Of a stretch of 64,000 nt of DNA, positions 1-63,926 are shown piece by piece. A program made the translations under genes and the position numbers. Source of the stretch: an uncultured Gemmatimonadaceae bacterium (GTDB lineage Bacteria; Gemmatimonadota; Gemmatimonadetes; Gemmatimonadales; Gemmatimonadaceae). Under the pieces are notes generated by a model. It searched no databases, had not been told where the DNA came from, and saw only the letters and a list, made by a program, of their open reading frames with translations. Location of the stretch: NCBI GenBank assembly GCA_963829055.1, contig CAWHHI010000011.1, positions 448,001 to 512,000 on the forward strand, given 5' to 3'. Position 1 is the first letter of the stretch; each line of letters opens with the position of its first letter.

Positions 1-926
1 GTCGCGCGGCGTCGTCCGCGCGGCGATGGCTGGCGGCGTGACCGTGATCAGCGCGAAGCCTTCCTCGCCACTCGGCGCGTACGGCAGCATCGCGACAGAG
101 GCAGACGACGTTCGGCGAAGTGGCAGCAGGACGGTGACCTGCGGCGCGTCGCCGACGGCGGTCACCTCGCGACGCGAGCCGCGATCGGTGACGCGCAACT
201 CGTGCGTCGGCGAGTACGGGCGACCGTACTCCTCGCGGTCCGTGTAGACGAGCGTGAACAGGTTGCCCGACTCGTCCTCGCCGCGCTGCTGCTGGCTGGC
301 GTTAGGCATCACGTCGGAGCGCATACGATCGATCCCGCGGCATTGGCACGGGCAGCGGCATGGGATGCGGGAACGGGATGCGGCATGGGCTGCGCTCGTG
401 GCCCGGACCCACGCAGGTAGTCGACGCGGACGCGCGCTGCCTTCGCGCTCGGCGACGGACTGGAAGCGAACGATGACGCGCTTCTCCTCGCCGGGTCGGA
501 TGGGGAAGATGCGTGTGCGCAGCAGGCCACGGCCCATGTACTCGACGAGCGCGGGGTCCTTGCTCCGCCTAACGATATCCTCGTAGACGCGACGTGCCTG
601 ATCGGCCGCCATGGTCTCGCCGGAGACCATCTCGCCATCGATCTCGAGCTCGAGGGCCTCGAACGCGGCGCCGGCGGGCATGGGGAAGATGTAGTCCGCT
701 TCGCCGATGAGCGGACCACGATTCCGGAAGGTCTCCGTGATCTGATAGCGGAGTACCCGATCCGCGAGATCGACGCGGACTTGACTGGACGTCCGCTGGA
801 TGGCGCCCGCGGTTGGCGGAACGCAGCTCCGGTTCTCGGCGCACGGGCGTGGAATGATCGTTCCCTGCCCCTGGAGGGCGATGGGCGCGGATAAGACGCT
901 ATGGCGAGCAGTGATCGGACACGCAT
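1..926 (-). CDS. VIT (vault/inter-alpha-trypsin) domain protein, probably VIT-vWA; 3' end runs off the window; frameshifted
   Basis: Manual minus-strand translation gives signal-like MRVRSLLAIA, then ITETFRNRGPLIGEADYIFPMPAGAAFEALELEIDGEMVSGE..ARRVYEDIVRRSKDPALVEYMGRGLLRTRIFPI (VIT-like), later GEEGFALITVTPP..PRD leading into a likely vWA domain. Confidence 0.75.
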
Positions 927-991
927 GACAGGGCCTGGGAAGAGGTTCTGTCATGGAGACGTCCGATCTTCGCGGACTTGCACACGTACAG

Positions 992-1257
992 ATCATCCCG
1001 CCGGGGTCGGTGGGAACTACGATTGGGCGGATGACACGGAAAACGGCCGGATCACGGCTTTGCATCGACGCTGGCTCGCTCGCCGGACCCTGAACATAAT
1101 GGGAACGGCCGCTCGGGAGACTCCTGCGTCCCGAGCGGCCGTTCCCAATAGGATTCCGGCCCGTGGCGTGAGGAGCCGTCGATGACGCGATTCGTATCCG
1201 GCTCACTTCCGCGTCATCCGCGAAATCGCCGTTCCCACCGGCCGCGCTGGGTCATGC
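992..1257. repeat. ~260-bp nested palindromic intergenic element, copy 1
   Basis: Outer imperfect inverted repeats (GGTCGGTGGGAAC.. / ..GTTCCCACCGGCC) and central 19-bp stem TGGGAACGGCCGCTCGGGA / TCCCGAGCGGCCGTTCCCA at 1100-1147; homologous inverted copy at 46658-46918. Confidence 0.85.
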
Positions 1258-1316
1258 GATCGAGCCGGCCCGCAGTCCGCGATGTGCCACTGACGCGCGA
1301 TCGATCCGAGATCGGG

Positions 1317-3461: not shown

Positions 3462-5527
3462 GCGGCTCCGGTACGAGCGGCGGCGGTGCGGAGGTCGGCG
3501 TCCTTGGATTTCGCGACCAGCGCGAGCACCTCGGCGGCTTCCGGGGCGGAGCTCCAATGGGCGGCCAGGCCAGCGATGGAGGAAATGAGCTGCGGCGACT
3601 TCTCTCGAAGCACGGGCGTACGCAGCAGCCAGTGCTTCTTCACCGTGCGTTGCGCGATCCAGCGCATGGCGTCGAGCGATCCCGAAGCGGCGAGCGCGCG
3701 GATGCCGCGGGCTCGCAGCTCGCCACTCAGCGTGGAGGCGTCGATTCGACGCATGAGGATCGGAACGGCGAGCGCCGGGCATCCCTTGAGCGCCGCGGCG
3801 AGCGCGATGCCGAGCGTGCGTTCGTCGGAGTCGTCGAGCCCGATGACGATAGCGGCGTCACGCGTTGCATCGCGGCGAAGCATCAGCTTCACCGCTTCGC
3901 GGCGGACGCCGGCATCCGCGCTCGTGGCGTACGGCTCGGGCGTGAACTCGCCGGGCCATTCGCCGAGTCGGTCGATGACGTGCAGCATTTGCCGTTGCGC
4001 ATGCACCGGCGCGTCTGCCAACCGATCGACGATCCGCTGTCCCGAGACGTCGGCGAGTCGCACGAGCATGTCCGACGCCCAGCCGTGCAGACGTTCCTCC
4101 TCGTCCTCGAGGAGATCGATGATCGGATCGACGGCAACCTCCCGCAGTCGCAGCGCGAGACGCTCGGCCAGGCGCGCGTTAGGCGGCTCGCTGTGCAGGA
4201 GCGTCGATGAGACGGTCCGGCGTGACGACGCGCGACAGCAGCATATCGCGCGTCTCGCCCTCCGGCGCGTCCTCGAGCAGATCGAGCAATGGCGTGACAT
4301 CAGGACGCGCGAGCAGCTCGCCGAAGATCCGTTCGGTGTTTGGTCCGATGGTCGAGACCTCCAGCGCCAGCTGCAACATCCGTTCGGGATCGGCGCCGCC
4401 GCCTGCATCCACGTCGTGCGTCGCGGTGTGCCGGGCGATGGAGTCGAGCGCGGTGGTGTAGTCGTCGGGGTTCGGATCGGCGAGATCCCAGCTCGAGATC
4501 AGACGCCGCACCTGATCGCGCAACTCGGAGTCCGATCGCATCTGCACCGTGCTACCGGGGGTACGCTCGGCGTGCGCGGCAAGCTTCGAGAGCATGCGCG
4601 CCGAGCGAGCTCGAGATCGTCTGGCCCGACACATCGGCCGCGGCGCGCACGACGTCGACCACCGCGTCGACCGTGAGTCCATGGCTCGCGTTCATGCGCG
4701 AACTGCATGCGCTGCGCGGAATCACCGCCCATCGCGAGCAGGCGCTTGAGCGTGCGCGGCTCCATCTGGCGCACGAGCTTCGAGACGCGGTCGCGCAGCG
4801 GGGCCGCCGCGCGCTGCTCGTCGGTGTTGAGCTCGTCGGCGATCTGCAGCATGTAGCCGACGACGACCTGATCGTACGCCGAGTCGCCCTGGTGCGCGTC
4901 GATGGCGCGGGCAACCGCTGTCGGATCCGTGGACGTCAGCTCCGACGTCGCCTCGCGAGCGAGGGCCGCGCGCGCGAGTCCGATCCAGAGTTGAGCGGCA
5001 CGCGTGCGCGCCTCGCGAGCGTCCTCTCCTTCGACGGCAGCATCGTCGAGACCGTCACTGATCAGCTCGAGCTGATCGAATGTCAGCGCGAACAGACGTG
5101 CGTTGCGCCACCGCTGGAGGACCTCGGGTCCCATGAGTCCGAGCGGTCGCTCGACCCGCCCACCATCGATCGCGATCGTCGCGAGCACCTCGGCCAGCTC
5201 TTCCTTGTCGAGACCGCGGCTCAGACGCAGCGCGCCGATCTGGTGGCGATGGAGGCGCGCGGCGAAGTCACGGAGGATGGGATGATCTTCGTCGGTGGCA
5301 ATGCCTTCGATGATCAGTTGGCGGCGTGCGACGCCTATCGAGAGCGTCGGCGTCTGCTCGAGAAACGCGGCAAGCCGGCGCGCCAGACTATCGACGGCCG
5401 CGACGAGGAGCGGGTGGGTGCCGGGATAGATGGCGTTCTTGTGCACGGCCACCGCCAACTCGATGAGCAAGTCGGCGTGGTCCTGGGGCAGCGCGGCGTC
5501 GGCGGAGCCAGTGACGATCGAGCTCAT
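3458..5527 (-). CDS. HEAT-repeat helical protein; frameshifted across three ORFs
   Basis: N-terminal AVHKNAIYPGTHPLL; C-terminal HEAT-like ADAGVRREAVKLM and DADLRTAAAR; translationally coupled to the HD-GYP gene. Confidence 0.7.
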
Positions 5528-6257: not shown

Positions 6258-8370
6258 ATGCTTTCTGCCTCGCATCGGGAAGTGCTCGAGGCGGTCGCGC
6301 GGCGGGTCGTGCCGCACGCCTACGACGACGGCGCTCAGACGGCGGATCTCGTCGCGCGCATTGAGGCGCATCTCGCGCTGGCGCCCACCTGAACGCGTGC
6401 GCGACCTCGAGCTTGCGCTCACCGTGCTCGGTAGTCGAGCCGCGGCGCTGCTGCTCTCGGGGATGACGGCGCCCTTCCCTCGCCTGTCGGCCGAACGGCA
6501 GGACCGATGCTCGCGCGGTGGTCGACGTCTCGCGTGGGCGTCGCGCGCAGCGTGTATCAGGGTGTGCGGCGACTCGTGCTCGCGGTGTACTACTCGCAGC
6601 CCGAGTCGTTCGCGGACATTGGCTACCTCGGCCCGCTGCACGAGCGCGCGCTGGCGTTCGCGTGGGAGGGCCCGGCGCCAGCCGCACGCGCGCGCCTAAC
6701 GCCGACGAGCCGGTCGCGCGCGGCGCGAGCGGAAGCGCGCGAGTCACTCGTCGCCGCAGCCGCGCCGCCGGAATCGCGAGTGCCGGTCACTCAGCGTCAC
6801 CCAGCCACCAGCACCGCTCGCTTGACGGCGGACGTCGATCGTCATCGGCAGCGGCGCCGGTGGCGCTGTCGCGGCAGCACGGCTGGCCGAGGCGGGGCGC
6901 GATGTGCTGCTGCTCGAGGAAGGCAACCTCGTCGCCCCCGCCGAGTTGAACGAGCGCGAAGGCGACATGACCGCGCGCCTCTACGCGGAGCGCGGCATGC
7001 GGGCGACTGACGATCTCTCGGTGGTGCTGTTCCAGGGCGCGGCGGTCGGCGGCGGCACGCTCGTGAACTGGATGATCACGTTTCGCGCGCCCGACTTCGT
7101 GCTCGACGAGTGGTCGCGATCGCTTCGGCATTGGTCGGCTTCTCGCCGGCGGACATGGCGTCAACGTTCGAGCGCGTCGAGCGAGAGATTCACGCGACGC
7201 CCTGTCCCCGACGACGCGCACTCGCCCGCGAACCGCATTCTCCTCGACGGCGCCCGCCGGCTCGGCTGGCGCGCGACGACCGGATCGCATCAACGCACGC
7301 GGCTGCATTCGCGCCGGCTTCTGTGGACAGGGCTGTCGCTACGGCGCGAAGCAGAGCGTCGATCGCGTATACGTGCCGCCGGCGCATCGCGCGCGGCGCG
7401 CGGCTGCTCCCCGACGTGCGCGTCGAACGCATCGACGTCGTCGAGCGGGATGGCGCGTCGTCGACGGCCGCACGTGGCGCGCGACGCACGACGGCGCCGC
7501 TCAAGCGCGTGCACGCGACGGTCGTCGACCGCCTAACGCGCAAGCCCGTGGGCACGCTCGTCGCCGAAGCGCCCGTGGTGGTGCTCGCGGCCGGCGCCGT
7601 GGGAACGCCGGTCATCCTGCAACGGTCGGGGCTCGGCGGCGGCGGCGTGGGCCAGTATCTGCGACTCCACCCGACCACGGCGATCGTCGGAGAGCACAGC
7701 GACGACGTCTACGCTGCCGCGGGCATACCGCAGTCCGCCGTGTGCGACGAGTTCATCCGCCGCGACGACCACGGCTACGGCTTCTGGATCGAGTGTGCGC
7801 CGATCCATCCGGCGCTGGCCTCACTCGCAGTCAGCGGCATCGGGACCGAGCATCGCGACCTGATGCGGCGTTTTCGTCGCACGACGAATCTCATCGTGCT
7901 CGTGCGCGACGGCTCTGACCTCGACGCCTCGAACGGCTCCGTCACCGTCTCGCGCCGTGGGCGCCCGCGCATCGCCTATCGCGTGGGGCCGCGCGACCGC
8001 GCGAACCTCGTCGCGGGCGTGCAGGCCTCGGCGAAGATCCTGCTGGCGGCGGGCGTCACGCGGCGTTCGGACGCTGCACACGCTCGGGGGCGAGGTGCGT
8101 GACGACCGCGACGTCGCCGCGCTCAGCGACCGCGCGTGGGGCCCGCACGATCTCACGCTGTTCTCCGCCCACGTGAACGGCACCTGCCGGTTGGGAAGCG
8201 ACCCTCGCACATCGGGCGTCGACGCGACGGGCCAGCGTCACGGCGTGCGCGGACTCTACGTCGCCGACGGCTCGCTCCTCCCTACCGGGCTCGGGGTGAA
8301 TCCGCAGGCGACGATCATGGCGCTCTCCACGATGATCACGGAGCGGATGGTGGCGAGCGATGCTGTGTGA
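6258..8370 (+). CDS. GMC family oxidoreductase (long-chain alcohol oxidase-like); several frameshifts
   Basis: VVIGSGAGGAV FAD-binding motif near 6840, GAAVGGGTLVNW, VVLAAGAVGTPVILQRSG, SAHVNGTCRLG, GLYVADGSLLPTGLGVNPQATI. Confidence 0.85.
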
Positions 8371-8463: not shown

Positions 8464-10507
8464 GTGTCCGAAACTGCCTCTTCCGCCGCCGTCGCGTCGT
8501 CGGCGTCGTCGCTCGATGAGTTGTGCATCAACACCATCCGCACGCTCGCCATGGACGCGGTGCAGAAGGCGGACTCGGGGCATCCGGGGACGCCCATGGC
8601 GCTGGCGCCGCTGGCCTACGTGCTGTTCACGCGGCACATGCATCACAACCCGGCCGATCCCGCGTGGCCGAACCGCGATCGGTTCGTGCTGTCGTGCGGT
8701 CACGCGTCGATGTTGCTGTACAGCGCGCTCTACCTGAGCGGCTACGACCTCTCGCTCGAGGATCTCAAGCAGTTTCGGCAGTGGCAGAGCCGGACGCCCG
8801 GCCACCCCGAATACGGCCACACACCCGGCGTCGAGACGACGACCGGCCCGCTCGGCCAGGGCGTCGCGAACGCCGTCGGATTCGCGATGGCGGAAATGCA
8901 CCTCGCGGCGACGTTCAACCGTGAAGGGCACAAGATCGTCGATCACCACACGTACTTCATCTGCAGCGACGGCGATCTCATGGAGGGCATCTCCCATGAG
9001 GCGTCGTCGTTCGGCGGCCACAACAAGTTCGGGAAGCTGATCGGCTTCTACGACGACAACCACATCACGATCGACGGCTCCGACGGACCTCTCGTACACC
9101 GATGATGCCGGCATGCGGTTCGAGGCGTACGGGTGGCACGTGCTGCACGTCGCGGACATCAACGACCTCGACGCGCTCGACGCCGCGATCGAGGCGGCGA
9201 AGGCCGAGACGGGCAGGCCGACCATGATCGTGTGCCGCACGCACATCGGCTTCGGCAGCCCGCACAAGCAGGACACGGCGAAGGCGCACGGTGAGGCGTT
9301 AGGCGAGGAAGAGATCAAGCTCACGAAGCGCAATCTCGGCTGGCCGAGCGAGGAGTCGTTCTACGTCCCCGAGGAGGCGCTGGCGCACTGGCGGAAGGTT
9401 CGCGAGCGTGGCGCCGCGCTGCACGAGGGATGGCGCCGCCAGCTCATCGCTTACTCGAAGGCGCATCCCGACCTCGCGAAGGAGTTCGGCCGTCGCATGC
9501 AGGGCGATCTGCCGACGGGGTGGGAGAGCGCGATTCCGACGTTCACGAAGGAGAACGGCAACGTCGCGTCGCGTGCGGCATCGGGCGTGGTACTGGGCGC
9601 GCTCGTCGAGAAGGTGCCCGAGCTGCTCGGCGGGTCGGCGGACCTGACGCCGTCGAACAACACGCAGCCAAAGTCGTTCAAGTCGTTCTCGCCCGAGACG
9701 CCGGCCGAGCGCTACGTGCACTACGGCATTCGCGAGCACGGCATGGCGGGCATCATGAACGGGCTCGCACTGCATGGCGGCATCATCCCGTACGCCGGCA
9801 CGTTCCTGATTTTCTCGGACTACATGCGTCCGTCGCAGCGACTCGCGTCGCTGATGCATCAGCGTGTGATCTACGTGTTCACGCACGATTCGATCGGACT
9901 CGGCGAGGATGGCCCGACGCACCAGCCGATCGAGCAACTGACGGCACTCCGCGCGATTCCGGGATTCACGATGATCCGTCCGGCCGATGCGAACGAGACG
10001 GCGGAGGCGTGGCGCGTGGCGATCAAGCACAAGACCGGCCCGGTAGCGCTGGCCCTGACGCGGCAGAAGCTCGGATACATCGACCGCGAGAAGTACGGTG
10101 CGGCGTCCGGACTGGCGAAGGGCGCGTACGTGCTGGCGGACGCGCCTAACGGCAAGCCTGACGTCGTGCTGATGTCCAGTGGGTCGGAGGTCGCGCTCGT
10201 GCTCGAGGCGCAGACGAAGCTCGCCGCGGCAGGGGTGCAGGCCCGCGCGGTCAGCATGCCGAGTCACGAGCTGTTCGCGCAGCAGCCGCTGGAGTATCAG
10301 CGAGAAGTACTGCCAGTGGGATCGAAGCGCATCGCGATCGAGGCGGCGCATCCGATGTCGTGGTATCGCTGGGTTGGAAGCGAAGGCATCGTGATGGGCA
10401 TCGATCATTTCGGGGCATCGGCTCCGTTTGCGGAGATCTATACCGGGCTCGGACTTACAGTAGACAAGCTTGTCGAGGCAGCCCGAGGACTCGTAGCGGC
10501 CAAGTAG
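8464..10507 (+). CDS. tkt: transketolase; one frameshift near 9080
   Basis: [55 protein letters not shown]. Confidence 0.97.
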
Positions 10508-11919: not shown

Positions 11920-11999
11920 GCGACCGGACGGTTCGTCGCACTCTCGCTGTGGTGGTTGTCCGACCCGCTGCCTAACGACTCACCTTTCGTCCGGAACAC

Positions 12000-13671: not shown

Positions 13672-13677
13672 CGCGAC

Positions 13678-54900: not shown

Positions 54901-57800
54901 TCACCAGCGTCACCGCCTCGGCCGGCAGCATGCGCCGCCACACCTCACGCTGCGAGCCAGCCGTCGTGCGCTCCGTCTGCGACGCCGTCTGCCACTCGAG
55001 CAGGTGACGCTTGGTCGCGAACAGGCGCACGAGCGTGCGTACGATCGCGTCCGCGGACACCCACGCCTGATGCGGCAGCACGATGACCGTCAGCGCGAAC
55101 TGCTGCGCACTCGTCACCGCGTCGCGCCACACGGCCGCGTAGTAGGCGAACAACGATTTATCGGCGGGCGGCCGAACCACTGCCAGCGTTAGGCCGAACA
55201 GCCACGGGAATCCGATCGCGATCAGCACCGCCGCGGTCCATGGACCTTGCGGCACCGGCAGAACAGTCCATCCGGCGACGAGCAGCAAGAGCTGGAAGAT
55301 CTCGACCGTGCTGCGCCGCAGGTTGTCGAAGATCTTCCACCGGGAAACGGCGGACAGTCTGTTGTGCTCGGCGCGTCCATCGGGCCGGGGAACGGCGCTG
55401 CCGATCCATCGCAGAATCTGCCAGTCACCGCGAATCCATCGGTGCTTCCGACGCGTGTACGTGAGGTATCGGGTCGGGTAGTCGTCGTACAGTTCGATGT
55501 CGGTAACGAGCCCGGCGCGCGCGAACGCGCCCTCGATGAGATCGTGGCTCAGCAACACGTTCTCGGCGAACCGGCCGTGCGTCGCGCGCTCGAACGCGTC
55601 GACGTCGTAGATCCCCTTCCCCGTGTACGACCCCTCGCCGAACAGATCCTGGTAGACGTCGGAGACGGCCGTCGTGTAGGGGTCGACGCCCGGATGCCCC
55701 GAATGGATCGACGCGAACCGCGACCGATACGCGCTCGTCAGCGAGACACCCACGCGCGGCTGCAGGATACCGTACCCCTCCGTGACGCGGCCCCGCTCCG
55801 GATCGAACACCGGGCGGTTGAGCGGGTGCGCCATCGCGCCGACGAGCAGTTGCGCCGCGTCAGGCGGGAGCACCGTGTCGGAGTCCAGCGTGATGACGAG
55901 CCGGACCTCGCCTAACGGGGTCGGGTCGCCGACGATGCGCGAGAACGCGTCACGCGCACCGCCGCGCAGATACTGATTGAACTCGGAGAGCTTGCCTCGC
56001 TTTCGCTCCCAGCCCATCCACACGCGTTGGCTGTCGTTCCAGCGACGCGGCCGATGGAAGAGGTAGAAGAGCGTCTGATCGTTGCGACCGTACTTCTCGT
56101 TCAGCGCGGCAAGCCCCGCCGCGGCCGCATCGAGGATCGCCGCGTCGTCAGGCATCGTTTCCGATGGCGCGTCGAGAAAATCCGTGAGCAGCGCGAAGTG
56201 CAGGTGCGGGTCACGGTTCGCGAGAAACTGGACTTCCAGGTGTTCGATGGCCTCTCGCGCCGCGTCGACACTGCCGAGCAGCGTCGGTACGACGACTGCC
56301 GTCCGCCACTCCGCGGGAATGCCGCGCTCGCGAAACTCGAGCTTCGGGATGAGGCGCGGGTCGGTCACGAACGTGACCAGCTGATTCACCACGCTGACGC
56401 CGATCTCGCTCGCGGGCACGAGCGCCAGCAGGAGTACGAGGAGCGTCGCGCCCGCTCCAATGGGGCCAGCCACGGCGAGCGCCGCGGCGAGCGCCGCCAG
56501 CGTCACGAGAATGAGTGATGGGAAATAGGCCGCGTTAGGCCTGCGGGAGATCGCGCGCCGCAACCGCTCGTGCCACCGCGGGCTGTAGTGTACCGCCGCC
56601 TCGAGCTCGGCGAGGCCGCGGTCGACGAGCCAGTAGCCCACGTGGCGACGACGTTGGCCTGGTCCCTCAGCCGGCTGCCGGTTCGCGAGGTCGATCGCGA
56701 TTTCAGCCACCTTCGCTTCATCGCGCTCGGTCCGCTTCGCCAGCCGTTCGATCTCGTGTCGATACCGATCGCGCGCGGCGAACGTCATGGACGTGTAATC
56801 GCCCGTCGGATCGCCACGCAGCACACGCTCGATCGCGCTCTGCGACTCGACAAAACTGTTCCAGTCGAGACGCGCGATCGTTCGCAGACTCGTGATGCTG
56901 TTCGCGATCGTGACGCGGGTGATCGCGGCGCGCTGATTCGCGCGCGCTACCGCCTCCTCCGCGCTCATCAGATCCTCGGCGATCCACTGCTCGAGCCAGA
57001 CGAGCGGCGTGAACGAGGCCTGGATACGACCGGATCTGCGACAGGAAGCGCGAGACGAAGATCGCCGACAACTTCGGCGTGTGATCCACGAACTCGTGGA
57101 GGGCGACGCCGAGTTGCTTGGGCCCTGCCTCGCTCGCCTTTCGCAGCTGCTCAGCGGCGGCGTCCGCCGCGCGTACTTCGTCGAGCCGCGACAACGTACG
57201 GCGCGTCATCCGCCGGATGTTCTCGATCAGGCCCAGCCGCAGCATCGCCGGAATCGCCCACAGCTCGCCGATACGCAGCGGCGCGATGCGCTGGAACTCG
57301 CGCACGAACAGCTCCGTGTTCGCGAGGTCGAGATGCCCCTCGGTGTTCGCGATCAACTCGATCGCGATCTCGTACACGCGGGGGAAGCGCGCGAGCGGCC
57401 CGATTGCGAGCTCGGGCAGCTCCCGGTAGTAGCCGCGCGGGAGCGTCGCGCGAATCTCGCGAATGTGCTCTTCGACCGTGTAGAAATTATCGAGGAGCCA
57501 TTCACCAGCAGGACTTACATCGATGCCCTCATCGGCCGCTTCGCCAAGCGCCTCTCGGGCCTCGAGCAGGATGCTGTAGGTCTCTTCGAGTCGCCCGAGT
57601 AGCGGGACCTTGCGTCCCTTCCCAGACGGGCGGACACGTTGGCGCCGCGCCAACGCGCGCGCATGCTCCGCAAGCCGGTCGGCACCAAGCAGCTCGCCGC
57701 GGATGGGGCCGACGAGAGGCTCTTGCCGACCGTTCGTTGCGCGCGCCAACATGCGCGCGAGGAGTCCTGTTCTTCTCGCCGGGGGTGTACTGGTCGCCAC
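48942..57800 (-). CDS. ndvB: cyclic beta-1,2-glucan synthase (GT84 + glucoamylase-like + GH94), ~2950 aa; several frameshifts
   Basis: EWLLDNFY, WMGWERKRGKL, ITLDSDT, LSHDLIEG, RWIRGDWQ, YDLLASEARL, WSGSMFEYLMP, QSSGAFGFRDQLQD, ENGAQYTH, GRGGWTWYTGSA. Confidence 0.95.
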
Positions 57801-58616: not shown

Positions 58617-60825
58617 TCAGAACTCGACGACGAGCGACGTGCTCAGGCTCCGTCGCGGCTCGGGACGGAAGAACGACGCATTCGCGAATTCCGCGTAGAG
58701 CGCGTTCGTGAGGTTGTTCACGCCAAGCATGAGTGACGTGCGACTGCGTCCACGCTCGAACAGCGCAGCCTGCGCGCGGACATCATGCACCGTGAACGCA
58801 GGAAGCACCGCGCCGACGGGACTCGAACCGGCAATGATGTCCTTCTGCTCGCCGTTGTGCCGCAGTGCGTATCCGACCGACACGCGGTTGCCCACCGGGC
58901 GCCATGCGGCGTCGAACACCACCTTGCGCGAGTACGTGTCACCGACCGGGCTGTTGGGATCGGTGACGTTCTTCGACTGAATGCGAGAGAAGTTCGCCGA
59001 GAGATCGAAGGCGTTCAGCGCGCGCGCACCAGCCGTGAGCTCCAGCCCGCGGAAACGCAGATGATCGACGTTGACGTTCTTGTAGACAGGCAAGCGAGTC
59101 ACCGTGTCGCCGGTTGCCTCGATCGCGATGCCATCGTGCACGTTGTTCTGGAACACGAAGCCTTCCGCGAACAACGCCCCGCGACGCCACCGCGCACCGA
59201 CGTCGACGTTGAGGCTCGTCTCGGGATCGAGATCGAGGTTTCGCGCCTGGTATCCCGAGCCTTCGGGCGTGGGACCGTCGAAGAAGCGCTCGACCAGATT
59301 CGGCGACCGGAAGCCGCGCCCCACCGAAGCGATGAGGTTGAGCCCGGACGCCGCACGCACGAGCAGGTTCGCGGTGCCCACCGCCGTACGGTCACGGCTC
59401 TCGTACGAGGACGTGAGGCCTGGCGTGTCCCGCGTCTCCGCAACGACGTCCTGCACGCGCGCGCCGAGAATGACCGACACGCGCTCAACGACCCGCATGT
59501 CCCCCTGGGCGAACAGACCCGCGCTCCGGAACGTCGCGTTAGGTACCTGCGGCGTCGTGCTGACCTGCGACCGCGGCGGGCCGAACCCCGTGACGACCGT
59601 CAGGCTGGAATCGGTGTTGTCGGAATGGTCGCGGAATGCATCCGCGCCATACGTCATCAGCAGGCGATTCCCGACGAGCTTCGTCACCTCGGCCCTGAAC
59701 CCGAGGCTCTGGAGGTCCGTCCAGTTCCGCTGCTGCGAGGTCACGCCCGCCGTGGATGGCAGTCCGCCCCCGAACGGCACGAACACGTCGAGATCCGAGA
59801 TGCCGGGTGTTCTGCTGCAGGTACGTCGTCAGCTCGACGCGGTCGGCGACGGCTGTGCGCAGGGCCAGGGCGCGCCAGCCTAACGAGTAGCGCGACACGT
59901 CCTGATCCGGATACGTGATCTGAATGGTGGGGGCACCCGTCACGCCGAGATCGCCGTTCGCGACATAGCCGAATCCCGCGTCCCGTGCCGTGTAGTGCTC
60001 CGCGCGCGCGAACAGCGACTGCGACCGACCGAGGTCCCAGCCGGCCGTCGCGTTGTAGGAGTAGTCGCGAACGCCGGTGTCGTTCACGCGAACGTCGCTC
60101 GGGAGATCGATGTCGCCGAAGCTACCCGACGGCGCCGTGTATGATCGCGTGTCTCGATAGGCACCGCTCGCTCGAAACGCGAAGCGGCCCGATCGCCCCT
60201 GAACGCCCGCGCTCGGTGTCTGTTGCTTGTCCGCCGTAGAGTACCGGAAGCCAGCCCATCCATGAAACGAGTCGCCACCTGTTGGCAGACCCGGCGTGAT
60301 GATGTTCACGACGCCGCCAATGGCATCGGTGCCGTAGAGCACTGACGCTGGGCCGCGCACGACTTCCACCCGGTCGATGCCGTTGATGCCAGCGATCGCC
60401 GGCAACTCTCCGAAATCCTGCTGGCGGCGGGAGTTGTTCAGGCGCAGCCCGTCCTCCAGGAGAAGAATGCGCTGACCGCTGAGCCCGCGAATGGTCGGCC
60501 GCGTCTGATTCGTACCGACGCCAGTGATGTCGAGCCCAGGCAGATCACGAAACGCGTCGACAGGTGTGTTCGGCATCCGCCGGTGCAGCGTCGCCGAGTC
60601 GATGACGCTCACGGCCGCGGGCGTGTCGAAGACGTCCTTCTCGGTGCGCGTCGCCGTGATCACCACTTCCCCGAGGGATCTCGCTCGCCGGCGTGAGGAA
60701 TCCGCCCGCGCTGCAGAGTCTCGCGCGGTTGGTGACTGGGCAGCGGACACGGTGGCGATCGTCGCACTGGCGATGAAGGACCAGACTACGGCGAGCGACC
60801 GCGGTCGCGCCGATATGAGGAGCAT
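58617..60825 (-). CDS. TonB-dependent receptor (heme/siderophore-like); frameshift near 59790
   Basis: EVVITATR, PTIRG, VEVVRGPASVLYG, GFRSPN..NLDLDPE, C-terminal F. Confidence 0.92.
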
Positions 60826-61135
60826 CAATTCTCTCGCTTGTTTCGATTCGTGGAGTGAACGCGCGCCCCTGTGTTGCGGTGTCAGCGTGGTGAGATATCG
60901 GACGGGCAGCGCACTTCTACCATATGACTCCTTCGCGAGCCTTGGCATTCGGCACGGTACGGAGTGGAATCTCGGTACAAATACGGAACGTGTCCGAATT
61001 CGCGGCCGGAGTCTTGCGCACGGTTTCGTTCGCGCGACTGACGTCGACCTGTTCCGCATTGCAATGCTCCGGCGATGACCCCTCATGCCGGCATTGGTGT
61101 CCCTCGTATGTCGTTGCTGCTTCTGTCCCGGCTCG

Positions 61136-63242
61136 GTGACACTCACTCACGATCCTTCGAACCCTGACGACGAACGCTTTCACACGCCGATCGAGGCCGA
61201 AGCGTTAGCGCGCGGCCTCGCGGCGCGTAGTCCATCGCGTCTGGCCACGGCGCTTCGCATCACCGAATCGGTGAATCGCGAAACGACGCTGGTCGAAGGA
61301 CTCGCTGCGCTCGTCGCGGGCGTGCGCGAGGCGCTCGCGACGGACACAGCGGCGGTCCTGCTGGTGGAGGATTCCGCCGATGGTCAGGTGCTCGTGATGT
61401 ACGCGGGCCGCGGCCGGGCCCTGGGCGACGCGAACGCGCGCATCCCGGTCGGCCGAGGGCTTCTCGGGCGCATCGCGGAGCGTCGTGAGACTGTTGTGAT
61501 CGACAACCTCCGCGAGCTCGGCGATGTCCCGATTCCACTCGGCACCGAGCACGTCGTTTCGTTCATTGGCGTTCCGGTGGTTGATCAGGGTCGGCTGATC
61601 GGCGTGTTGTACGCCGGCTCACGCACGCCGCGCCGATTTGGTGACGATGACCGTCAACTGATCGAGCTCGTCGCGTCGGGCGCTGGTCCGACGATCGCAC
61701 GCGCACGTCTCGGCGACGCACTCGATCTGTATCGCCGACAGCTCGAAACGCAGACCGGCGAGCTCGAGGCTACAGCGAGCGAGCTCGAGCTGACGGTCAC
61801 AGGCGCTGCGACGCGCCAACGCCGAGCTCGCAGCGACAGCCGAGGCCGCTCGTGCCGCACAGGTCGCCGCCGAAGCCGCCAACCGCGCGAAGTCGGCGTT
61901 TCTCGCGACGATGTCACACGAGCTCCGCACACCGCTCAACGCGATTCTCGGCTACGCGTCGTTGCTGCTCGATGGTCTCGCAGGACCACTCGACGCGCCA
62001 CAGCGCGACTTCGTCGAGCGCACGCGGGCGAGTGGCCGGCATCTGCTCGGACTCGTCGAGGAAGTGCTCGACATCGCGAAGGTCGAGGCCGGCCAGATGC
62101 GCGTGGACGTCGGACCCGTAGCAGCGGCTCGCGTCATCAACACCGCGGTCACCCTCGTGCGTCCGCAGGCGGCATCGGCCGGTGTGAACGTCGATGCGTC
62201 ACAGTGCGAGTCCGTGTTAGGCGAGGTCACCGGCGACGAGCGGCGCGTCCGTCAGATTCTGCTCAACCTGCTCGCCAACGCGATCAAGTTCACCCGAGCC
62301 GGCGGCCGCATCACCGTGCGCTGTGAGCGCGTGGAGGGAAAGTCGCCGTTCACGCCCGGGTCGCTCGGATCCTGGATGTGCCTGGGCGTCACCGACACGG
62401 GAATCGGCATCGATCCCGAGCACCTCGAGACGATCTTCGAGCCGTTCGTGCAGCTCGACGCGAGCCACACGCGGGCGCGCGGCGGCACGGGCCTTGGTCT
62501 GGCCATCAGCCGCCGCTTCGCGCGACTCATGGGCGGCGACATCACGGTCTCGAGTCGCGTCGGCCAGGGCACGACGTTCACGCTGTGGCTGCCGGCGTGG
62601 GAGCGCGATCGACCGGCGACCGCGCGTCCGGCACACTGGCGCGACGGCGAGCGCATCACGACGCCGCAGCATCTGAGCGTGCGCTTCGCCGGGACCAGGG
62701 CGGGGCGCGTGGCGTTAGGCGAGCTGCTCGTCATCACGGCAGCCGACATCGTGGCGACGGTCGTCGACCGATTGCGAGGCGATCCCCAGATTCCGCGGGC
62801 GCGCGAAGTCACGCGCACGGAGCTCGAGGATCACATCGCGACGTACCTCAGCGACATCGGTCAGATGTTCGCGGTCCTCGATGAGCGCGGCACCGACCGC
62901 ACGCCGCTCATCATCGACGGCACGACCATCCAGCGTCTCATCGCCGAGCGCCATGGCGCGCAGCGGTATCGTCTCAAGTGGACGGAGGAGGAGCTCCGAC
63001 GCGAGCTCTCGACGCTGCTCGCCGAGGTCGAACGCGTCGTGCTCGACTCGTCGCTGCTCACGGGGTCTCCGCCCAGTGACACCGTTCCGCTGCTCCGCGT
63101 GATTCTGCAGGAGGCGGAAGAGGTGAGCGTGCTGGGATTCCACGAGGCGGCGGCACGCGACCGGAGTCGTCAGGAAGCCGAGACTGGACAGCAGCACGGA
63201 GCCGAGCCGGGACAGCAGCCCGTCCATTCGAGGAGCGACTGA
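61136..63242 (+). CDS. GAF-domain sensor histidine kinase with extra C-terminal helical domain; frameshift near 61800
   Basis: GAF (GRGLLGRIA, GVPV..GRLIGVL), MSHELRTPL, NLLANAIKFT, DTGIG, GGTGLGL. Confidence 0.9.
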
Positions 63243-63263
63243 CGCGCGTCGCCGACGACGTTT

Positions 63264-63926
63264 CTACGGAGTGACGAGGCCCTCTTCGACCGCGAGCCGC
63301 GTCAGTCCGGCAACGCTGTGAATGTCCAGCTTGCGCATGAGACTCTCGCGGTGTGTCTCGATCGTGCGCGGGCTGATGCCGTAGCGCGCGGCGATCTCCT
63401 TGTTCGTCTCGCCGTTCGCGATCCCCTCCAGCACCTCGCGTTCGCGTCCGGTGAGGAGCGCGAGCTTCGACACGCGCGCCATTCGATCAGACTCGCCGCG
63501 TAAGGCGTCGCCGAGACGCACCGCCATGGCGGCGCTGAAGAACGACTCACCGCGGTCCACCGCGCGAACCGCGTCACGCAACTCGTTAGGCGACGAGTCC
63601 TTCCGCAGGTAGCCGTGGGCGCCGGCACGCACGGCCTGCAGCACGTACTCCGCCTCGTCGTGCACGCTCAGGATCAGCACGCGCGCGCGTGGTGCGGCGC
63701 CGCGGACGTCACCGATGACCTCGAGCCCTGTTCCGTCCGGCATCGAGACGTCGAGCACCACGACGTCGGGCTCGCACTCGCCCGCCAGTTTCACTGCTTC
63801 GGAACCACTCGCCGCTTCGCCGACGACGTCGAAACCACGCGACGCGGCGAGCACGTTCCGGATGCCCTCGCGGACGACGGCGTGGTCGTCTGCCACGAGT
63901 ACGCGAATGCGGGGTGCGCTCTTCAT
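63264..63926 (-). CDS. NarL/LuxR family response regulator
   Basis: ADDH, LDVSMP, LTGREREVL..GETNKEIA..IS.RTIETH. Confidence 0.95.
   Translation of the reverse strand: MKSAPRIRVLVADDHAVVREGIRNVLAASRGFDVVGEAASGSEAVKLAGECEPDVVVLDVSMPDGTGLEVIGDVRGAAPRARVLILSVHDEAEYVLQAVRAGAHGYLRKDSSPNELRDAVRAVDRGESFFSAAMAVRLGDALRGESDRMARVSKLALLTGREREVLEGIANGETNKEIAARYGISPRTIETHRESLMRKLDIHSVAGLTRLAVEEGLVTP

What the first reader, a model, noticed from the sequence alone, without database searches (positions are those of the whole stretch)
300..63591. Highly iterated non-palindromic octamer GCCTAACG/CGTTAGGC written through genes and spacers
Seen: 44 exact copies by manual count, starting at 300, 567, 4177, 6694, 7531, 9297, 10144, 11838, 11970, 12828, 13666, 15348, 15606, 16248, 16946, 18222, 21199, 22465, 23652, 24821, 27172, 27385, 27605, 34101, 34315, 35376, 35736, 37746, 38972, 40043, 41802, 47595, 49662, 50001, 50569, 51154, 52123, 53023, 55187, 55910, 56533, 59878, 62713, 63584. 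There are also 9 edge-mismatch copies (14566, 21697, 26926, 29501, 38274, 41202, 42535, 59537, 62215). A rough zero-order estimate at ~68% GC expects only 2-3 exact copies. Orientation is near balanced (19 vs 25), unlike polar Chi or KOPS sites. Most copies sit inside genes, including housekeeping ones, in different frames and using codons rare in GC-rich genomes: GCG-TTA-GGC in tkt, CGC-CTA-ACG in the GMC oxidase, GTT-AGG in ndvB. The motif also supplies TAA stops at 13669, 35739 and 42537. Established parallels are Neisseria/Pasteurellaceae DNA uptake sequences and cyanobacterial HIP1. Inference: a lineage-specific uptake, protein-binding or modification-linked signal. I know of no description of this motif.
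Basis: partly seen in the sequence, partly recalled or inferred. Interest (0 to 1): 0.85.

Follow-up and report, generated by a model that had tools for sequence, protein, structure and literature searches.

The report
Genome-wide GCCTAACG tag in Gemmatimonadaceae
A soil bacterium and many of its relatives carry one eight-letter DNA word thousands of times through genes, spacers, plasmids and phages, against normal codon choice; this is the pattern left by the "own-DNA" uptake tags of Neisseria and Haemophilus, but what reads the word is unknown.

Summary
All 44 exact copies and all 9 edge variants sit at the stated coordinates, against 0.96 expected.

The window comes from a 7.78 Mb Gemmatimonadaceae MAG with 5002 copies (0.64/kb). 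That is 17-49x over Markov orders 0-3, and 20.6x over a null that keeps every protein and each gene's codon usage.

- **Anatomy:** a tight 8-mer with no longer repeat around it.
- **Placement:** strand-balanced, non-polar, equally dense in coding and unassigned DNA, and under-dispersed, with few neighbours under 200 bp.
- **Origin:** it arises by point substitutions, often synonymous ones to the rarest codons; 46.5% of all TTA codons lie in it.
- **Distribution:** bimodal across 251 family genomes. 78 genomes in 28 of 77 genera have 100/Mb or more; 158 have a median of 4.6/Mb.
- **Other DNA:** secondary replicons, a 15 kb integrative element and phage structural genes carry it too.

Best reading, at 0.45, is an uptake-sequence-like self tag spread by molecular drive. 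No reader was found: ComEC, pilins and two methyltransferases do not track the word. Chi-like, methylation-linked and binding-array readings remain as rivals.

I found no published description. The scan had already noted this word in other Gemmatimonadaceae windows and, untested here, in soil Verrucomicrobia.

The parts
300..307 (-). exact copy; coding strand reads nnG-CCT-AAC-Gnn in the VIT-domain ORF
567..574 (+). exact copy; coding (-) strand reads nnC-GTT-AGG-Cnn, same ORF
4177..4184 (-). exact copy; not assigned to a gene by my model
6694..6701 (+). exact copy; unassigned
7531..7538 (+). exact copy; nGC-CTA-ACG in the GMC-oxidoreductase ORF
9297..9304 (-). exact copy; GCG-TTA-GGC (Ala-Leu-Gly) in transketolase; same site carries the word in 7 of 9 word-rich genomes and 0 of 32 word-poor ones
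10144..10151 (+). exact copy; nnG-CCT-AAC-Gnn in transketolase
11838..11845 (+). exact copy; in small predicted ORF 11749-11919
11970..11977 (+). exact copy; unassigned
12828..12835 (+). exact copy; unassigned
13666..13673 (+). exact copy; GCC-TAA supplies the stop of the GNAT acetyltransferase ORF 13117-13671
15348..15355 (-). exact copy; just downstream of the LanC-like gene
15606..15613 (-). exact copy; nGC-CTA-ACG in the LanC-like gene
16248..16255 (+). exact copy; nCG-TTA-GGC on the coding (-) strand of the LanC-like gene
16946..16953 (-). exact copy; nGC-CTA-ACG in ORF 16805-17542
18222..18229 (-). exact copy; unassigned
21199..21206 (-). exact copy; CCT-AAC frame in the TonB-C ORF
22465..22472 (+). 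exact copy; unassigned
23652..23659 (+). exact copy; TTA-GGC frame on the coding (-) strand, ORF 22509-23804
24821..24828 (-). exact copy; CTA-ACG frame in a TonB-dependent receptor fragment
27172..27179 (-). exact copy; inside the 799-aa ORF 25033-27432 (-), beyond my model's start
27385..27392 (+). exact copy; same ORF end, unassigned by my model
27605..27612 (-). exact copy; CCT-AAC frame in the peptidase C26 gene
34101..34108 (-). exact copy; unassigned
34315..34322 (-). exact copy; unassigned
35376..35383 (+). exact copy; CTA-ACG frame in the histidine-kinase ORF
35736..35743 (+). exact copy; CTA-ACG frame in the histidine-kinase ORF (its TAA is out of frame, not a stop)
37746..37753 (+). 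exact copy; TTA-GGC frame on the coding (-) strand, MetA-pathway porin-like ORF
38972..38979 (-). exact copy; CCT-AAC frame in the GH57/DUF3536 gene
40043..40050 (-). exact copy; CCT-AAC frame in the GH57/DUF3536 gene
41802..41809 (-). exact copy; CCT-AAC frame in the GH57 branching-enzyme gene
47595..47602 (-). exact copy; CTA-ACG frame in the TPR gene
49662..49669 (+). exact copy; TTA-GGC frame on the coding (-) strand of a GH94 fragment; conserved in all 5 aligned genomes of the genus
50001..50008 (-). exact copy, found only in G000 among the 5 aligned genomes; relatives read L-P-T-V here, G000 L-P-N-V; in a shifted frame its TAA ends ORF fragment 50003-50704
50569..50576 (-). exact copy; GH94 fragment
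51154..51161 (-). exact copy; unassigned
52123..52130 (-). exact copy; unassigned
53023..53030 (+). exact copy; GTT-AGG frame on the coding (-) strand of the ndvB-like gene
55187..55194 (-). exact copy; CTA-ACG frame in the ndvB-like gene; conserved in all 5 aligned genomes
55910..55917 (+). exact copy, found only in G000 among the 5 aligned genomes; TTA-GGC frame in the ndvB-like gene
56533..56540 (-). exact copy, found only in G000 among the 5 aligned genomes; CCT-AAC frame in the ndvB-like gene
59878..59885 (+). exact copy; unassigned (TonB-dependent receptor region split over frames)
62713..62720 (-). exact copy; TTA-GGC frame in the histidine-kinase gene 61911-63242
63584..63591 (-). exact copy; CCT-AAC frame in the response-regulator gene
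14566..14573 (+). edge variant ACCTAACG (position 1)
   Evidence: this variant is 17x enriched genome-wide
21697..21704 (-). edge variant GCCTAACC (position 8)
26926..26933 (+). edge variant ACCTAACG (position 1)
29501..29508 (-). edge variant CCCTAACG (position 1)
38274..38281 (+). edge variant CCCTAACG (position 1)
41202..41209 (-). edge variant ACCTAACG (position 1)
42535..42542 (-). edge variant GCCTAACA (position 8)
   Evidence: this variant is 15x enriched genome-wide
59537..59544 (-). edge variant ACCTAACG (position 1)
62215..62222 (-). edge variant GCCTAACA (position 8)

Best explanation
GCCTAACG is a self-identifying genomic word of one sub-clade of Gemmatimonadaceae. A directional process acting on DNA installs and maintains it; selection on proteins, codons or RNA does not.

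The most likely process is the one known for DNA uptake sequences. A component of the type IV pilus/ComEC transformation machinery binds duplex DNA better when it carries the word. Fragments from relatives that carry the word are then taken up and recombined more often. Substitutions that create the word therefore spread, and those that destroy it are replaced (molecular drive). One word per fragment is enough, which spaces the copies out.

Shown here:
- the enrichment and its survival of a protein- and codon-preserving null;
- the tight 8-bp anatomy;
- strand balance and equal density in coding and unassigned DNA;
- short-range repulsion between copies;
- origin by point substitution, including purely synonymous changes to rare codons;
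- a bimodal, clade-limited distribution;
- presence on all replicons, on an integrative element and in phage genes;
- presence of ComEC, DprA, a ComEA-like HHH protein and type IV pilins.

For: **Size of the excess**
- 5002 copies in 7.78 Mb, rank 31 of all 8-mers by count.
- Observed/expected is 17x, 38x, 49x and 19x at Markov orders 0-3.
- 3330 copies in predicted genes against 161.8 +/- 12.4 (maximum 185) in 20 synonymous-codon shuffles within each gene.

**A word, not a repeat element**
- There is no information beyond G-CCTAAC-G.
- One-off variants are enriched only at position 1 (A 17x, C 9x), position 8 (A 15x) and position 3 C>A (7.7x). This is the graded tolerance expected of a protein reading duplex DNA.

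**DNA level**
- Density is 0.63/kb in predicted genes against 0.70/kb elsewhere.
- All four stop-free frames are used: 1324, 938, 609 and 446 copies.
- 46.5% of all TTA codons and 15% of CTA codons lie in the word.
- At a conserved H-G-x-[AP]-L-G site of transketolase the Leu codon is TTA, forming the word, in 7 of 9 genomes with 100/Mb or more. It is CTC, CTG or TTG in 32 of 32 word-poor genomes.

**No polarity**
- 2457 forward against 2547 reverse in G000.
- 86,768 against 87,141 over the 78 rich genomes.
- No link to GC skew or gene strand in 145 windows of 50 kb.
- No consistent link in 15 regions of a closed genome.

**Spacing**
- Observed/expected is 0.19 at 8-50 bp, 0.41 at 50-200 bp and 1.24 at 400-1600 bp.
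- All 12 control 8-mers of similar abundance gave 0.89-1.25 at the two short ranges.

**Ongoing turnover**
- In a 9-kb alignment of 5 genomes of the genus, 2 of 13 sites are shared by all. The rest are specific to a clade or a single genome, and differ from the orthologous sequence by 1-4 substitutions without gaps.

**Lineage limits**
- Of 251 family genomes, 78 have 100/Mb or more (median 356, maximum 1340), 15 have 30-100/Mb, and 158 have under 30/Mb (median 4.6). The rich genomes fall in 28 of 77 genera.
- On a transketolase tree all rich genomes fall in one 20-row clade.

**Parallel with USS in phages**
- Temperate phages of Pasteurellaceae accumulate USS with time spent in the host (PMC6776037, passages read).
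- Here phage contigs carry the word at 0.5-1.5/kb inside terminase, head and tail genes. A 15-kb integrative element carries it at 0.8/kb.
- Six related terminase regions in word-poor hosts hold 0 copies in 26.5 kb.

**Machinery**
- G000 has ComEC, a ComEA-like HHH_3 protein and DprA, plus PilM and several type IV pilins.
- ComEC is found in 27 of 27 word-rich genomes tested.
Against: - No uptake or transformation data exist for any of these organisms.
- The machinery does not explain the distribution. ComEC is also found in 23 of 25 word-poor genomes.
- No reader was found. An orphan pilin matches every genome through its N-terminus alone. A 383-aa protein of the pilus cluster is in 27 of 27 rich genomes but also in 15 of 25 poor ones.
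- About half of all DUS/USS copies lie in terminators (abstract of bioRxiv 10.1101/2025.10.24.684340). Here only 13 inverted pairs within 60 bp exist among 5002 copies.
- No dialects were seen. The identical word tops the lists in all four rich or moderately rich genomes sampled from other genera (G014, G010, G165, G123). The five word-poor genomes sampled showed no alternative word.
- Density is the same on the chromosome, two megabase replicons, a small integrative element and phages. A process inside the cell that acts on any resident DNA explains this at least as simply.
- Earlier notes of this scan report the same word in soil Verrucomicrobia (untested here).
- My gene model is crude (76% coding) and the assembly has many frame breaks, so the frame and stop-codon counts are approximate.
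Confidence: 0.45

Rival explanations
1. Chi-like signal. The word is read on unwinding DNA by an AddAB-type helicase-nuclease, which stops degrading and starts recombination. Linear DNA carrying the word survives, whether it is a broken chromosome or incoming DNA. The word is therefore selected, or driven through recombination of incoming fragments, in chromosomes, plasmids and phages.
For: - Two PD-(D/E)XK nuclease domains lie 3.6 kb apart on one strand at G000:C15:11.7-16.0 kb. This is the layout expected of addB-addA (the layout is my inference).
- Chi is an over-represented 8-mer that is richer in the core genome (PMC8022716, passages read).
- Papers on Chi-rich phages exist (PMC3784561 and PMC12315714, search listing and start of abstracts only). 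The word is in phage and mobile-element genes here.
- Even spacing would also suit a signal that must be met soon after any break.
Against: - No polarity: 49.1% forward in G000, 49.9% over the 78 rich genomes, and no link to GC skew. Polarisation on the leading strand is used as a defining criterion for Chi (PMC8022716, passages read).
- Density is 0.6-1.3/kb, against about one Chi per 5 kb in E. coli (same paper).
- The excess is 20-49x and runs against codon usage.
- No RecC (PF04257) and no alpha-type AddB (TIGR02786) match in G000, which is 86% complete.
- I did not test whether AddAB tracks the word.
Confidence: 0.15
2. Methylation- or repair-linked drive, in the manner proposed for HIP1 or seen with very-short-patch repair. 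A methyltransferase marks the word, and a partner repair enzyme converts near-matches into it inside the cell.
For: - The core CCTAAC looks like the asymmetric 6-7 bp sites of type IIG/IIL enzymes (my recollection; no call).
- G000 has a type IIG-like Eco57I-family methyltransferase next to an SNF2 helicase, and a D12-class methyltransferase.
- A process inside the cell would explain equal density on all replicons and in phages.
Against: - G000 has no match to PF00145 (C5), PF01555 or PF02384, so there is no substrate for a Vsr-type mechanism.
- The IIG-like gene is found in 46 of 47 genomes, rich and poor alike. No stretch of it is more alike among 10 rich genomes than between those and 10 poor ones.
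- The D12 enzyme is found in 10 of 27 rich and 11 of 25 poor genomes.
- Transition neighbours of the word are no more depleted (0.41-0.59x) than transversion neighbours (0.22-0.84x).
- A local conversion process does not predict the deficit of neighbours under 200 bp.
- Raw signal could not be examined, because only contigs of the runs are served.
Confidence: 0.08
3. Array of binding sites for an abundant chromosomal protein, for nucleoid organisation or self/non-self marking by a defence system. Selection at each site keeps the sites at regular distances.
For: - Even spacing and a nearly uniform density of 0.48-0.80/kb over the 20 contigs.
- Orientation does not matter.
- The pattern of tolerated variants is that of a protein reading duplex DNA.
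Against: - Selection site by site is unlikely to hold 5000 sites against codon bias, or to vary 75-fold between sister lineages. One genus holds five genomes at 870-974/Mb and one at 13/Mb.
- No candidate protein was found.
- No enrichment towards particular chromosome regions was seen.
Confidence: 0.12
4. Artefact or plain composition: a product of base-calling, polishing or assembly, or a by-product of amino-acid and codon usage.
For: - The enrichment is only 1.05x and 0.99x under Markov orders 5 and 6.
- The G000 assembly has many frame breaks.
Against: - The high-order models are saturated by the word itself.
- The codon-preserving null still gives 20.6x.
- 78 other genomes from many projects carry the word, among them MAGs whose contig names suggest short-read assemblers.
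- Contigs of four runs from four studies cover the stretch. None of the 40 differences shown, of 288, falls in the 10 copies there.
- A roughly 45-kb foreign chunk in the same assembly has none.
Confidence: 0.01

Closest known systems
Uptake signal sequences (USS) of Pasteurellaceae
   Same: - Short, non-palindromic word at about 0.6-1.3 per kb.
- On both strands, inside genes in several frames and between genes.
- Limited to a lineage.
- Accumulates in temperate phages of the host (PMC6776037, passages read; there USS saturate near 750/Mb, here the rich genomes have a median of 356/Mb and a maximum of 1340/Mb).
- ComEC, DprA and type IV pilus genes are present.
   Different: - Different phylum and an unrelated sequence.
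- 8 bp with no extended flanks.
- Almost no inverted pairs or terminator hairpins.
- No second dialect seen.
- Uptake bias and the receptor are not known. ComN is predicted for Pasteurellaceae (bioRxiv 10.1101/2025.10.24.684340, Introduction).
DNA uptake sequences (DUS) of Neisseriaceae, read by ComP
   Same: - Hundreds to thousands of copies.
- Self-recognition logic.
- Core positions strict and outer positions tolerant.
- Varies between related lineages.
   Different: - DUS come in 8 or more dialects and often sit as inverted repeats in terminators (bioRxiv 10.1101/2025.10.24.684340, abstract and Introduction). Here there is one word and 13 close inverted pairs among 5002 copies.
- No ComP-like reader was identified.
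- DUS distribution has been used to spot integrative elements in Neisseriaceae (PMC7371117, listing only). Here a 15-kb integrative element carries the word at host density.
Chi sites (RecBCD/AddAB recombination hotspots)
   Same: - Over-represented octamer that marks 'own' DNA.
- Found in some phages.
- A helicase-nuclease of the AddAB type is probably present.
   Different: - Chi is polarised on the leading strand and occurs about once per 5 kb in E. coli (PMC8022716, passages read).
- This word is unpolarised, 3-6 times denser, and runs against codon usage.
HIP1 and other highly iterated palindromes of cyanobacteria
   Different: - HIP1 is a palindrome and has been linked to methyltransferases (recalled).
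- This word is asymmetric, and no methyltransferase tracks it.

Membership tests
DNA uptake enhancing sequences (DUS/USS) | Short word present in hundreds to thousands of copies, far above composition | tested here: met
   5002 copies; 17-49x over Markov orders 0-3; 20.6x over the codon-preserving null
DNA uptake enhancing sequences (DUS/USS) | Both orientations, no replication polarity, in genes and between them | tested here: met
   49.1% forward; no link to GC skew; 0.63/kb in predicted genes against 0.70/kb elsewhere
DNA uptake enhancing sequences (DUS/USS) | Restricted to a lineage; absent from relatives and foreign DNA | tested here: met
   78 of 251 family genomes at 100/Mb or more, 158 at under 30/Mb; one clade on the tkt tree; none in the foreign chunk C6:10-55 kb
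DNA uptake enhancing sequences (DUS/USS) | Related lineages use variant dialects | tested here: not met
   The same word tops the lists in G014, G010, G165 and G123. The 5 word-poor genomes sampled (40-100 kb each) show only 7-bp tandem arrays. Samples are small.
DNA uptake enhancing sequences (DUS/USS) | Frequent inverted pairs forming terminators | tested here: not met
   13 inverted pairs within 60 bp among 5002 copies
DNA uptake enhancing sequences (DUS/USS) | Accumulates in temperate phages and elements that co-evolve with the host | tested here: met
   L195, L207 and L224 carry 0.5-1.5/kb in structural genes; a 15-kb integrative element carries 0.8/kb; related terminase regions in word-poor hosts carry 0 in 26.5 kb. 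The hosts of the phage contigs are inferred.
DNA uptake enhancing sequences (DUS/USS) | Transformation machinery present | tested here: met
   ComEC, HHH_3, DprA, PilM and pilins in G000; ComEC in 27 of 27 rich genomes but also in 23 of 25 poor ones
DNA uptake enhancing sequences (DUS/USS) | Word-dependent bias of DNA uptake, and a receptor that binds the word | not testable with these tools
   Needs uptake or transformation assays and binding assays. No receptor candidate tracked the word.
Chi | Polarised with the leading strand | tested here: not met
   the criterion is taken from PMC8022716
Chi | Cognate RecBCD/AddAB enzyme that changes activity at the word | tested here: inconclusive
   No RecC and no alpha-type AddB match. 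Two PD-(D/E)XK domains lie in an AddAB-like layout. Activity is not testable.
HIP1-type iterated palindromes | Palindromic word | tested here: not met
   GCCTAACG is not its own reverse complement
HIP1-type / VSP-type methylation-linked words | A DNA methyltransferase (and repair partner) that goes with the word | tested here: not met
   No PF00145, PF01555 or PF02384 match. The IIG-like gene is in 46 of 47 genomes with no region specific to rich genomes. The D12 gene is in 10 of 27 rich and 11 of 25 poor genomes.
KOPS/AIMS (chromosome-orienting words) | Strong strand skew that switches at origin and terminus | tested here: not met
REP/MITE-type dispersed repeats | Conserved sequence or hairpin beyond the core | tested here: not met
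   No information outside the 8 bp. Orthologous sites differ by substitutions, not insertions.

The most novel reading that the evidence does not exclude
The word is the visible trace of a small, horizontally mobile 'reader' that has spread across phyla.

That would be a channel for gene exchange between phyla.

What fits this reading:
- The distribution is bimodal and patchy, with one genus holding genomes at 870-974/Mb and at 13/Mb.
- There are no dialects.
- The cross-phylum report, which I did not test.
Probability: 0.12. Interest if true: 0.92.

Novelty: new variant of a known kind. Interest (0 to 1): 0.72.

Why it matters
Sequence-specific self-recognition of DNA is accepted for only two proteobacterial families (bioRxiv 10.1101/2025.10.24.684340, Introduction).

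A third, unrelated word with the same genomic footprint, in at least 28 genera of an abundant and mostly uncultured soil family, would have three consequences:
- Natural transformation with kin preference would be much more widespread in soil than is known.
- Closed genomes in the family carry the word, so the system could be tested if any of them stems from a culture.
- The word gives a practical marker. Its density separates contigs of these lineages from foreign DNA, as the chimeric chunk in this MAG shows. It can also link phages and mobile elements to their hosts.

Tried and rejected
- **Polarity scare.** One search listed only '+' hits for some genomes. Fetching those contigs showed mixed orientation, so this was a listing order.
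- **Dialects.** Enriched words in word-poor genomes (G007, G124, G018) turned out to be 7-bp tandem arrays, not dispersed words.
- **Long word-free gaps as islands.** Five gaps of 12-16 kb hold ordinary metabolic genes plus one RepA-like gene. Three gaps over 12.8 kb occur against 1.2 expected. Only C6:5440-55037 is an outlier.
- **Reader hunt.**
  - An orphan pilin matched all 47 genomes through its N-terminus.
  - A 383-aa pilus-cluster protein is in 27 of 27 rich and 15 of 25 poor genomes.
  - The IIG-like methyltransferase is in 46 of 47 genomes with no region specific to rich ones.
  - The D12 methyltransferase is in 10 of 27 rich and 11 of 25 poor genomes.
  - ComEC is in 27 of 27 rich and 23 of 25 poor genomes.
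- **Host of phage contig L195.** Terminase relatives at 29-41% identity were found only in 6 word-poor genomes and none in the 28 word-rich genomes searched (G000 included), so the host remains inferred.
- **IMG/VR hits L199, L241, L196.** The word sits inside longer repeat units there, which are unrelated. L212 has clustered GCCTAACGT copies, mostly between genes, and is probably a different thing.
- **Sequencing runs.** No RNA holder is listed and only contigs are served, so neither expression nor base modification could be examined.
- **Literature.** The word itself gave 478 papers; the 20 listed are primers and unrelated sequences. 'DNA uptake sequence' with 'Gemmatimonad' gave 0 papers. 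'Uptake sequence/overrepresented/Verrucomicrobia/k-mer' gave nothing relevant.
- **Scan patterns.** A 200-230 gap was accepted.

Full report
**The observation**

Dinucleotide shuffles gave a mean of 0.96 and a maximum of 5.

The three codon examples hold: tkt GCG-TTA-GGC, GMC oxidoreductase nGC-CTA-ACG, and ndvB-like GTT-AGG.

Of the three 'TAA stop' examples, only 13669 ends a gene of my model. 35739 is out of frame in the histidine-kinase ORF. 42537 ends an ORF that I do not take for a gene.

**The organism and the scale**

The window is G000:C11:448001-512000 of a 7.78 Mb, 20-contig, 66.7% GC assembly. Its transketolase is closest to MAGs labelled Gemmatimonadaceae or Gemmatimonadota from soil.

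- The genome holds 5002 copies, at 0.48-0.80 per kb on every contig. That is about 0.5% of the DNA.
- The word ranks 31st of all 65,536 octamers by count, although it contains TAA in a GC-rich genome.
- Observed/expected is 17x, 38x, 49x and 19x at Markov orders 0-3, and 1.7x, 1.05x and 0.99x at orders 4-6.

5004 of 7103 CCTAAC, 5004 of 6391 CCTAACG and 5004 of 5630 GCCTAAC are the word itself, so these models are trained on it.

The codon-preserving null is the fair test. I shuffled synonymous codons within each predicted gene, which keeps every protein and each gene's own codon usage, including the rare codons the word brings. This gave 161.8 +/- 12.4 copies (maximum 185 in 20 shuffles) against 3330 observed.

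**Anatomy**

- Aligning all 7103 CCTAAC sites shows information only at G(-1) (79%) and G(+6) (90%), and next to nothing beyond. There is no longer repeat, hairpin or element.
- One-off variants are enriched only at the two ends (ACCTAACG 17x, CCCTAACG 9x, GCCTAACA 15x) and at position 3 for C>A (GCATAACG 7.7x). Changes at positions 2, 4, 6 and 7 are at or below background.
- The only other variant above expectation is GCCTGACG (2.1x), an ordinary GC-rich word.
- Purines are tolerated at the ends, and C or A at position 3. A reader contacting the major groove of duplex DNA would tolerate these; that step is inference from base chemistry.
- Transition neighbours are no more depleted than transversion neighbours, so there is no very-short-patch signature.

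**Placement**

I made a simple codon-likelihood gene model. It covers only 76% of the genome, partly because this assembly has many frame breaks (see the caveats).

| Reading on the coding strand | Copies |
|---|---|
| nCG-TTA-GGC | 1324 |
| nnG-CCT-AAC-Gnn | 938 |
| nGC-CTA-ACG | 609 |
| nnC-GTT-AGG-Cnn | 446 |
| At gene ends | 405 |
| Unassigned DNA | 1280 |

- Density is 0.63/kb in predicted genes and 0.70/kb elsewhere.
- 46.5% of all TTA codons and 15.2% of all CTA codons of the genome lie inside the word.
- 254 of 935 TAA stops and 199 of 1932 TAG stops are supplied by it. This last figure is inflated by frame breaks. After a frameshift, the word's TAA or TAG is often the first stop met, as at 50003 in the window.

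**Orientation and spacing**

- Forward and reverse copies are 2457 and 2547.
- In 145 windows of 50 kb, orientation does not follow GC skew (rho -0.16, p 0.06) or gene strand (rho -0.12).
- In 15 regions of 20 kb from a closed four-replicon relative, G057, there is no consistent polarity.
- Neighbouring copies avoid each other. Observed/expected is 0.19 at 8-50 bp and 0.41 at 50-200 bp, 0.94 at 200-400 bp, and 1.24 at 400-1600 bp.
- All 12 control octamers of similar abundance gave 0.89-1.25 at the two short ranges.
- Only 13 inverted pairs lie within 60 bp.

**Not an artefact**

- The first roughly 55 kb of contig C6 holds a 49.6-kb gap without the word. From about 10 to 55 kb the GC content is 69-73% and not even the core hexamer occurs.
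- Its FtsK, chorismate synthase, DAHP synthase, TrpG and other housekeeping genes each have a second copy elsewhere in G000 at 47-60% identity; the phosphoglucomutase and amidase copies are more distant, at 32-36%. It is therefore a piece of another organism, either a chimeric join or contamination. It serves as an internal negative control from the same data set.
- The word is abundant in 78 other genomes from many projects.
- The species is held by 20 runs of 15 studies. Contigs of four runs from four studies cover window 9000-17000. None of the 40 differences shown (of 288) falls within the 10 copies there, although most differences were not listed.

**Distribution among relatives**

- All 7 genomes of the genus carry 350-740 copies per Mb.
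- Across 251 genomes of the family the distribution is bimodal. 78 genomes have 100/Mb or more (median 356, maximum 1340), 15 have 30-100/Mb, and 158 have under 30/Mb (median 4.6). In that last class the word is rarer than its non-complemented reverse control.
- By genus, 28 of 77 are rich, 6 intermediate and 43 poor. One genus is mixed: five genomes at 870-974/Mb and G124 at 13/Mb.
- Over the rich genomes, forward and reverse copies are 86,768 and 87,141.
- In the two other families of the order, 11 of 12 genomes are poor.
- On a transketolase tree of 41 rows, all rich genomes lie in one clade of 20 rows (support 93/87), mixed with poor ones. The 15 other Gemmatimonadales rows, 5 Longimicrobiales-type rows and 1 outgroup row are poor. 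This is a single-gene tree. One 'poor' row, L011, is probably a mis-binned contig.
- These tallies include unpublished genomes: G013, G051, G052 and G150, and G279 (L018) and G286 (L025). No conclusion rests on them.

**How copies arise**

- In a 9-kb alignment of five genomes of the genus (77-80% identity), 13 sites carry the word in at least one genome.
  - Two are shared by all five.
  - Six follow the split G000/G005/G001 against G003/G004, wholly or in part.
  - Five are private to one genome.
  - Where the word is missing, the orthologous sequence differs by 1-4 substitutions, never by a gap.
- At a universally conserved H-G-x-[AP]-L-G site of transketolase, 7 of 9 genomes with 100/Mb or more read xCG-TTA-GGC. 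All 32 poor genomes read CTC, CTG or TTG for the same leucine.
- That change is fully synonymous and goes to the rarest leucine codon. The force therefore acts on DNA, not on the protein.

**Replicons, mobile elements and phages**

- In G057, sampled density is 0.60/kb on the 5.31 Mb chromosome and 0.57 and 0.67/kb on two replicons of about 1.1 and 1.0 Mb. A 21-kb contig is a roughly 15-kb circle assembled with an overlap. It encodes a tyrosine integrase, an excisionase-like HTH protein and a DUF5906 protein, and it carries 12 copies, or 0.8/kb.
- One IMG/VR scan for two copies 200-230 bp apart returned 120 loci, mostly chance pairs. Three contigs have host-like density and varied flanks:
  - L195: 7 copies in 13.6 kb, with terminase, major head and Dit genes.
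  - L224: 12 copies in 7.8 kb, with virion structural proteins.
  - L207: 18 copies in 20 kb, with tail-fibre proteins.
- In L207 all genes point one way, and 15 of the 16 copies inside genes are in the synonymous-capable TTA-GGC frame. This explains its 16:2 strand bias without any polar function.
- Terminase regions related to L195 in six word-poor family genomes hold 0 copies in 26.5 kb.
- The same behaviour is described for USS. Phages that lysogenise Pasteurellaceae accumulate USS, up to about 750/Mb, while large lytic phages do not (PMC6776037, passages read).

**Search for a reader**

- G000 has ComEC, a small HHH_3 (ComEA-like) protein and DprA. It also has a PilM-containing pilus cluster with several pilins, and three orphan pilins.
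- None of these separates rich from poor genomes:
  - ComEC is in 27 of 27 rich and 23 of 25 poor genomes.
  - An orphan pilin matches every genome through its N-terminus.
  - A 383-aa pilus-cluster protein is in 27 of 27 rich and 15 of 25 poor genomes.
- G000 (86% complete) has no match to the three main DNA-methyltransferase families, PF00145, PF01555 and PF02384.
- It has a D12-class enzyme, found in 10 of 27 rich and 11 of 25 poor genomes.
- It also has a roughly 1070-aa type IIG-like Eco57I-family enzyme next to an SNF2 helicase. This is found in 46 of 47 genomes. Along its whole length, identity within 10 rich genomes, within 10 poor ones, and between the two groups agrees to within 0.05.
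- No RecC and no alpha-type AddB were found. Two PD-(D/E)XK domains 3.6 kb apart suggest an AddAB-like enzyme.

**Reading**

The data show that a DNA-level, orientation-blind, distance-sensitive and lineage-limited force writes this word. The one well-studied mechanism I know of that leaves this footprint is molecular drive by sequence-biased DNA uptake followed by recombination.

I put that at 0.45. It is not higher for these reasons:
- Uptake is untested.
- The machinery is equally present in poor lineages.
- There are no terminator pairs or dialects.
- The even density on every replicon, element and phage is as easily explained by a process inside the cell.

The rivals stand as follows:
- A Chi-like signal (0.15) fits the phage data and the spacing, but fails on polarity and on the size of the excess.
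- A methylation or repair drive (0.08) lost its candidate enzymes.
- A selected array of binding sites (0.12) does not explain the 75-fold swings between close relatives.

**Known or new**

My searches found no description of this word, nor of uptake sequences in Gemmatimonadota.

This scan has noted the same word before, in other Gemmatimonadaceae windows, and GCCTAACGA/TCGTTAGGC in soil Verrucomicrobia. I confirmed the former on this genome and its family. I could not test the latter.

**Caveats**

- The gene model is home-made.
- G000 has many genes split over frames: the ndvB-like gene, tkt, TonB-dependent receptors, both methyltransferases and the AddAB-like locus. Counts by frame and at stops are therefore approximate.
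- Genome sizes of relatives are rounded.
- Relatives are not independent samples.
- The hosts of the phage contigs are inferred from the word itself and from distant terminase relatives.

Noticed in passing
window 32888-32954, 39273-39301, 40708-40740, 44392-44423, 51342-51425: Short tandem arrays of 7-bp units (TGGGGAC, GCTGGTC, GGACTGG, CCCGATT, CCGATTC, CCGGGAA/CCGGTTC). Identical 34-35-mers of the CCCGATT type recur at many loci in five genomes of the genus. Their words top the order-6 Markov list of G000. Word-poor relatives have their own units: AGCAGAA in G124, GTCAGAT in G018, GATAGAC in G007. This is a genome-wide family of heptamer arrays, separate from the 8-mer.
   Followed up: partly
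G000:C6:~10000-55000 (outside the window): A roughly 45-kb stretch with 69-73% GC and no copy of the word or its core. It carries second, divergent copies of FtsK, AroC, DAHP synthase, TrpG, PepA and others. A D5-primase-like gene lies at its edge. It is probably a chimeric join or contamination in the MAG.
   Followed up: yes
window 8464-10507, 24386-27432, 48942-56968, 58617-61146; G000:C8:73.5-78.3 kb; C15:10-17 kb: Many long genes of G000 are split over two or three frames: tkt, two TonB-dependent receptors, the ndvB-like GH94 gene, the IIG-like methyltransferase (intact at about 1070 aa in relatives) and the AddAB-like locus. This suggests indel errors in the assembly rather than pseudogenes.
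   Followed up: partly
G000:C8:73551-78317 and orthologues (L166-L191): A roughly 1070-aa type IIG-like (Eco57I/MmeI-type) methyltransferase followed by an SNF2 helicase is conserved as a single-copy gene in 46 of 47 Gemmatimonadaceae genomes, at 45-60% identity along its length. Such conservation is unusual for a restriction-modification or DISARM-like module.
   Followed up: partly
G021:C95, C43, C80; G019:C3; G291:C1, C12; G287:C1: In word-poor genomes, some contigs show the word on one strand at regular steps of about 550 or 700-800 bp over 5-24 kb. These are most likely tandem repeat units of giant genes that happen to contain it.
   Followed up: no
L340 = G057:C4 (21 kb): The contig is a roughly 15.0-kb circle assembled with a 6-kb overlap. 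It encodes a tyrosine integrase, an HTH_17 excisionase-like protein, a DUF5906 protein and a 1024-aa protein with no Pfam match, so it is probably an excised integrative element.
   Followed up: partly
L199, L241, L196, L212 (IMG/VR contigs): The word also sits inside unrelated longer repeats of viral contigs with 30-58% GC: a CCCATCGCCTAACGGC family, 108-bp tandem repeats, and hairpin-flanked units. L212 has a cluster of GCCTAACGT copies, mostly between genes.
   Followed up: no
L011 (contig DATEPN010000189.1): A contig in a MAG labelled Acidobacteriaceae carries a transketolase that nests inside Gemmatimonadaceae, next to a word-rich genome, and holds one copy of the word. The rest of that MAG is word-poor, so the contig is probably mis-binned.
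   Followed up: no
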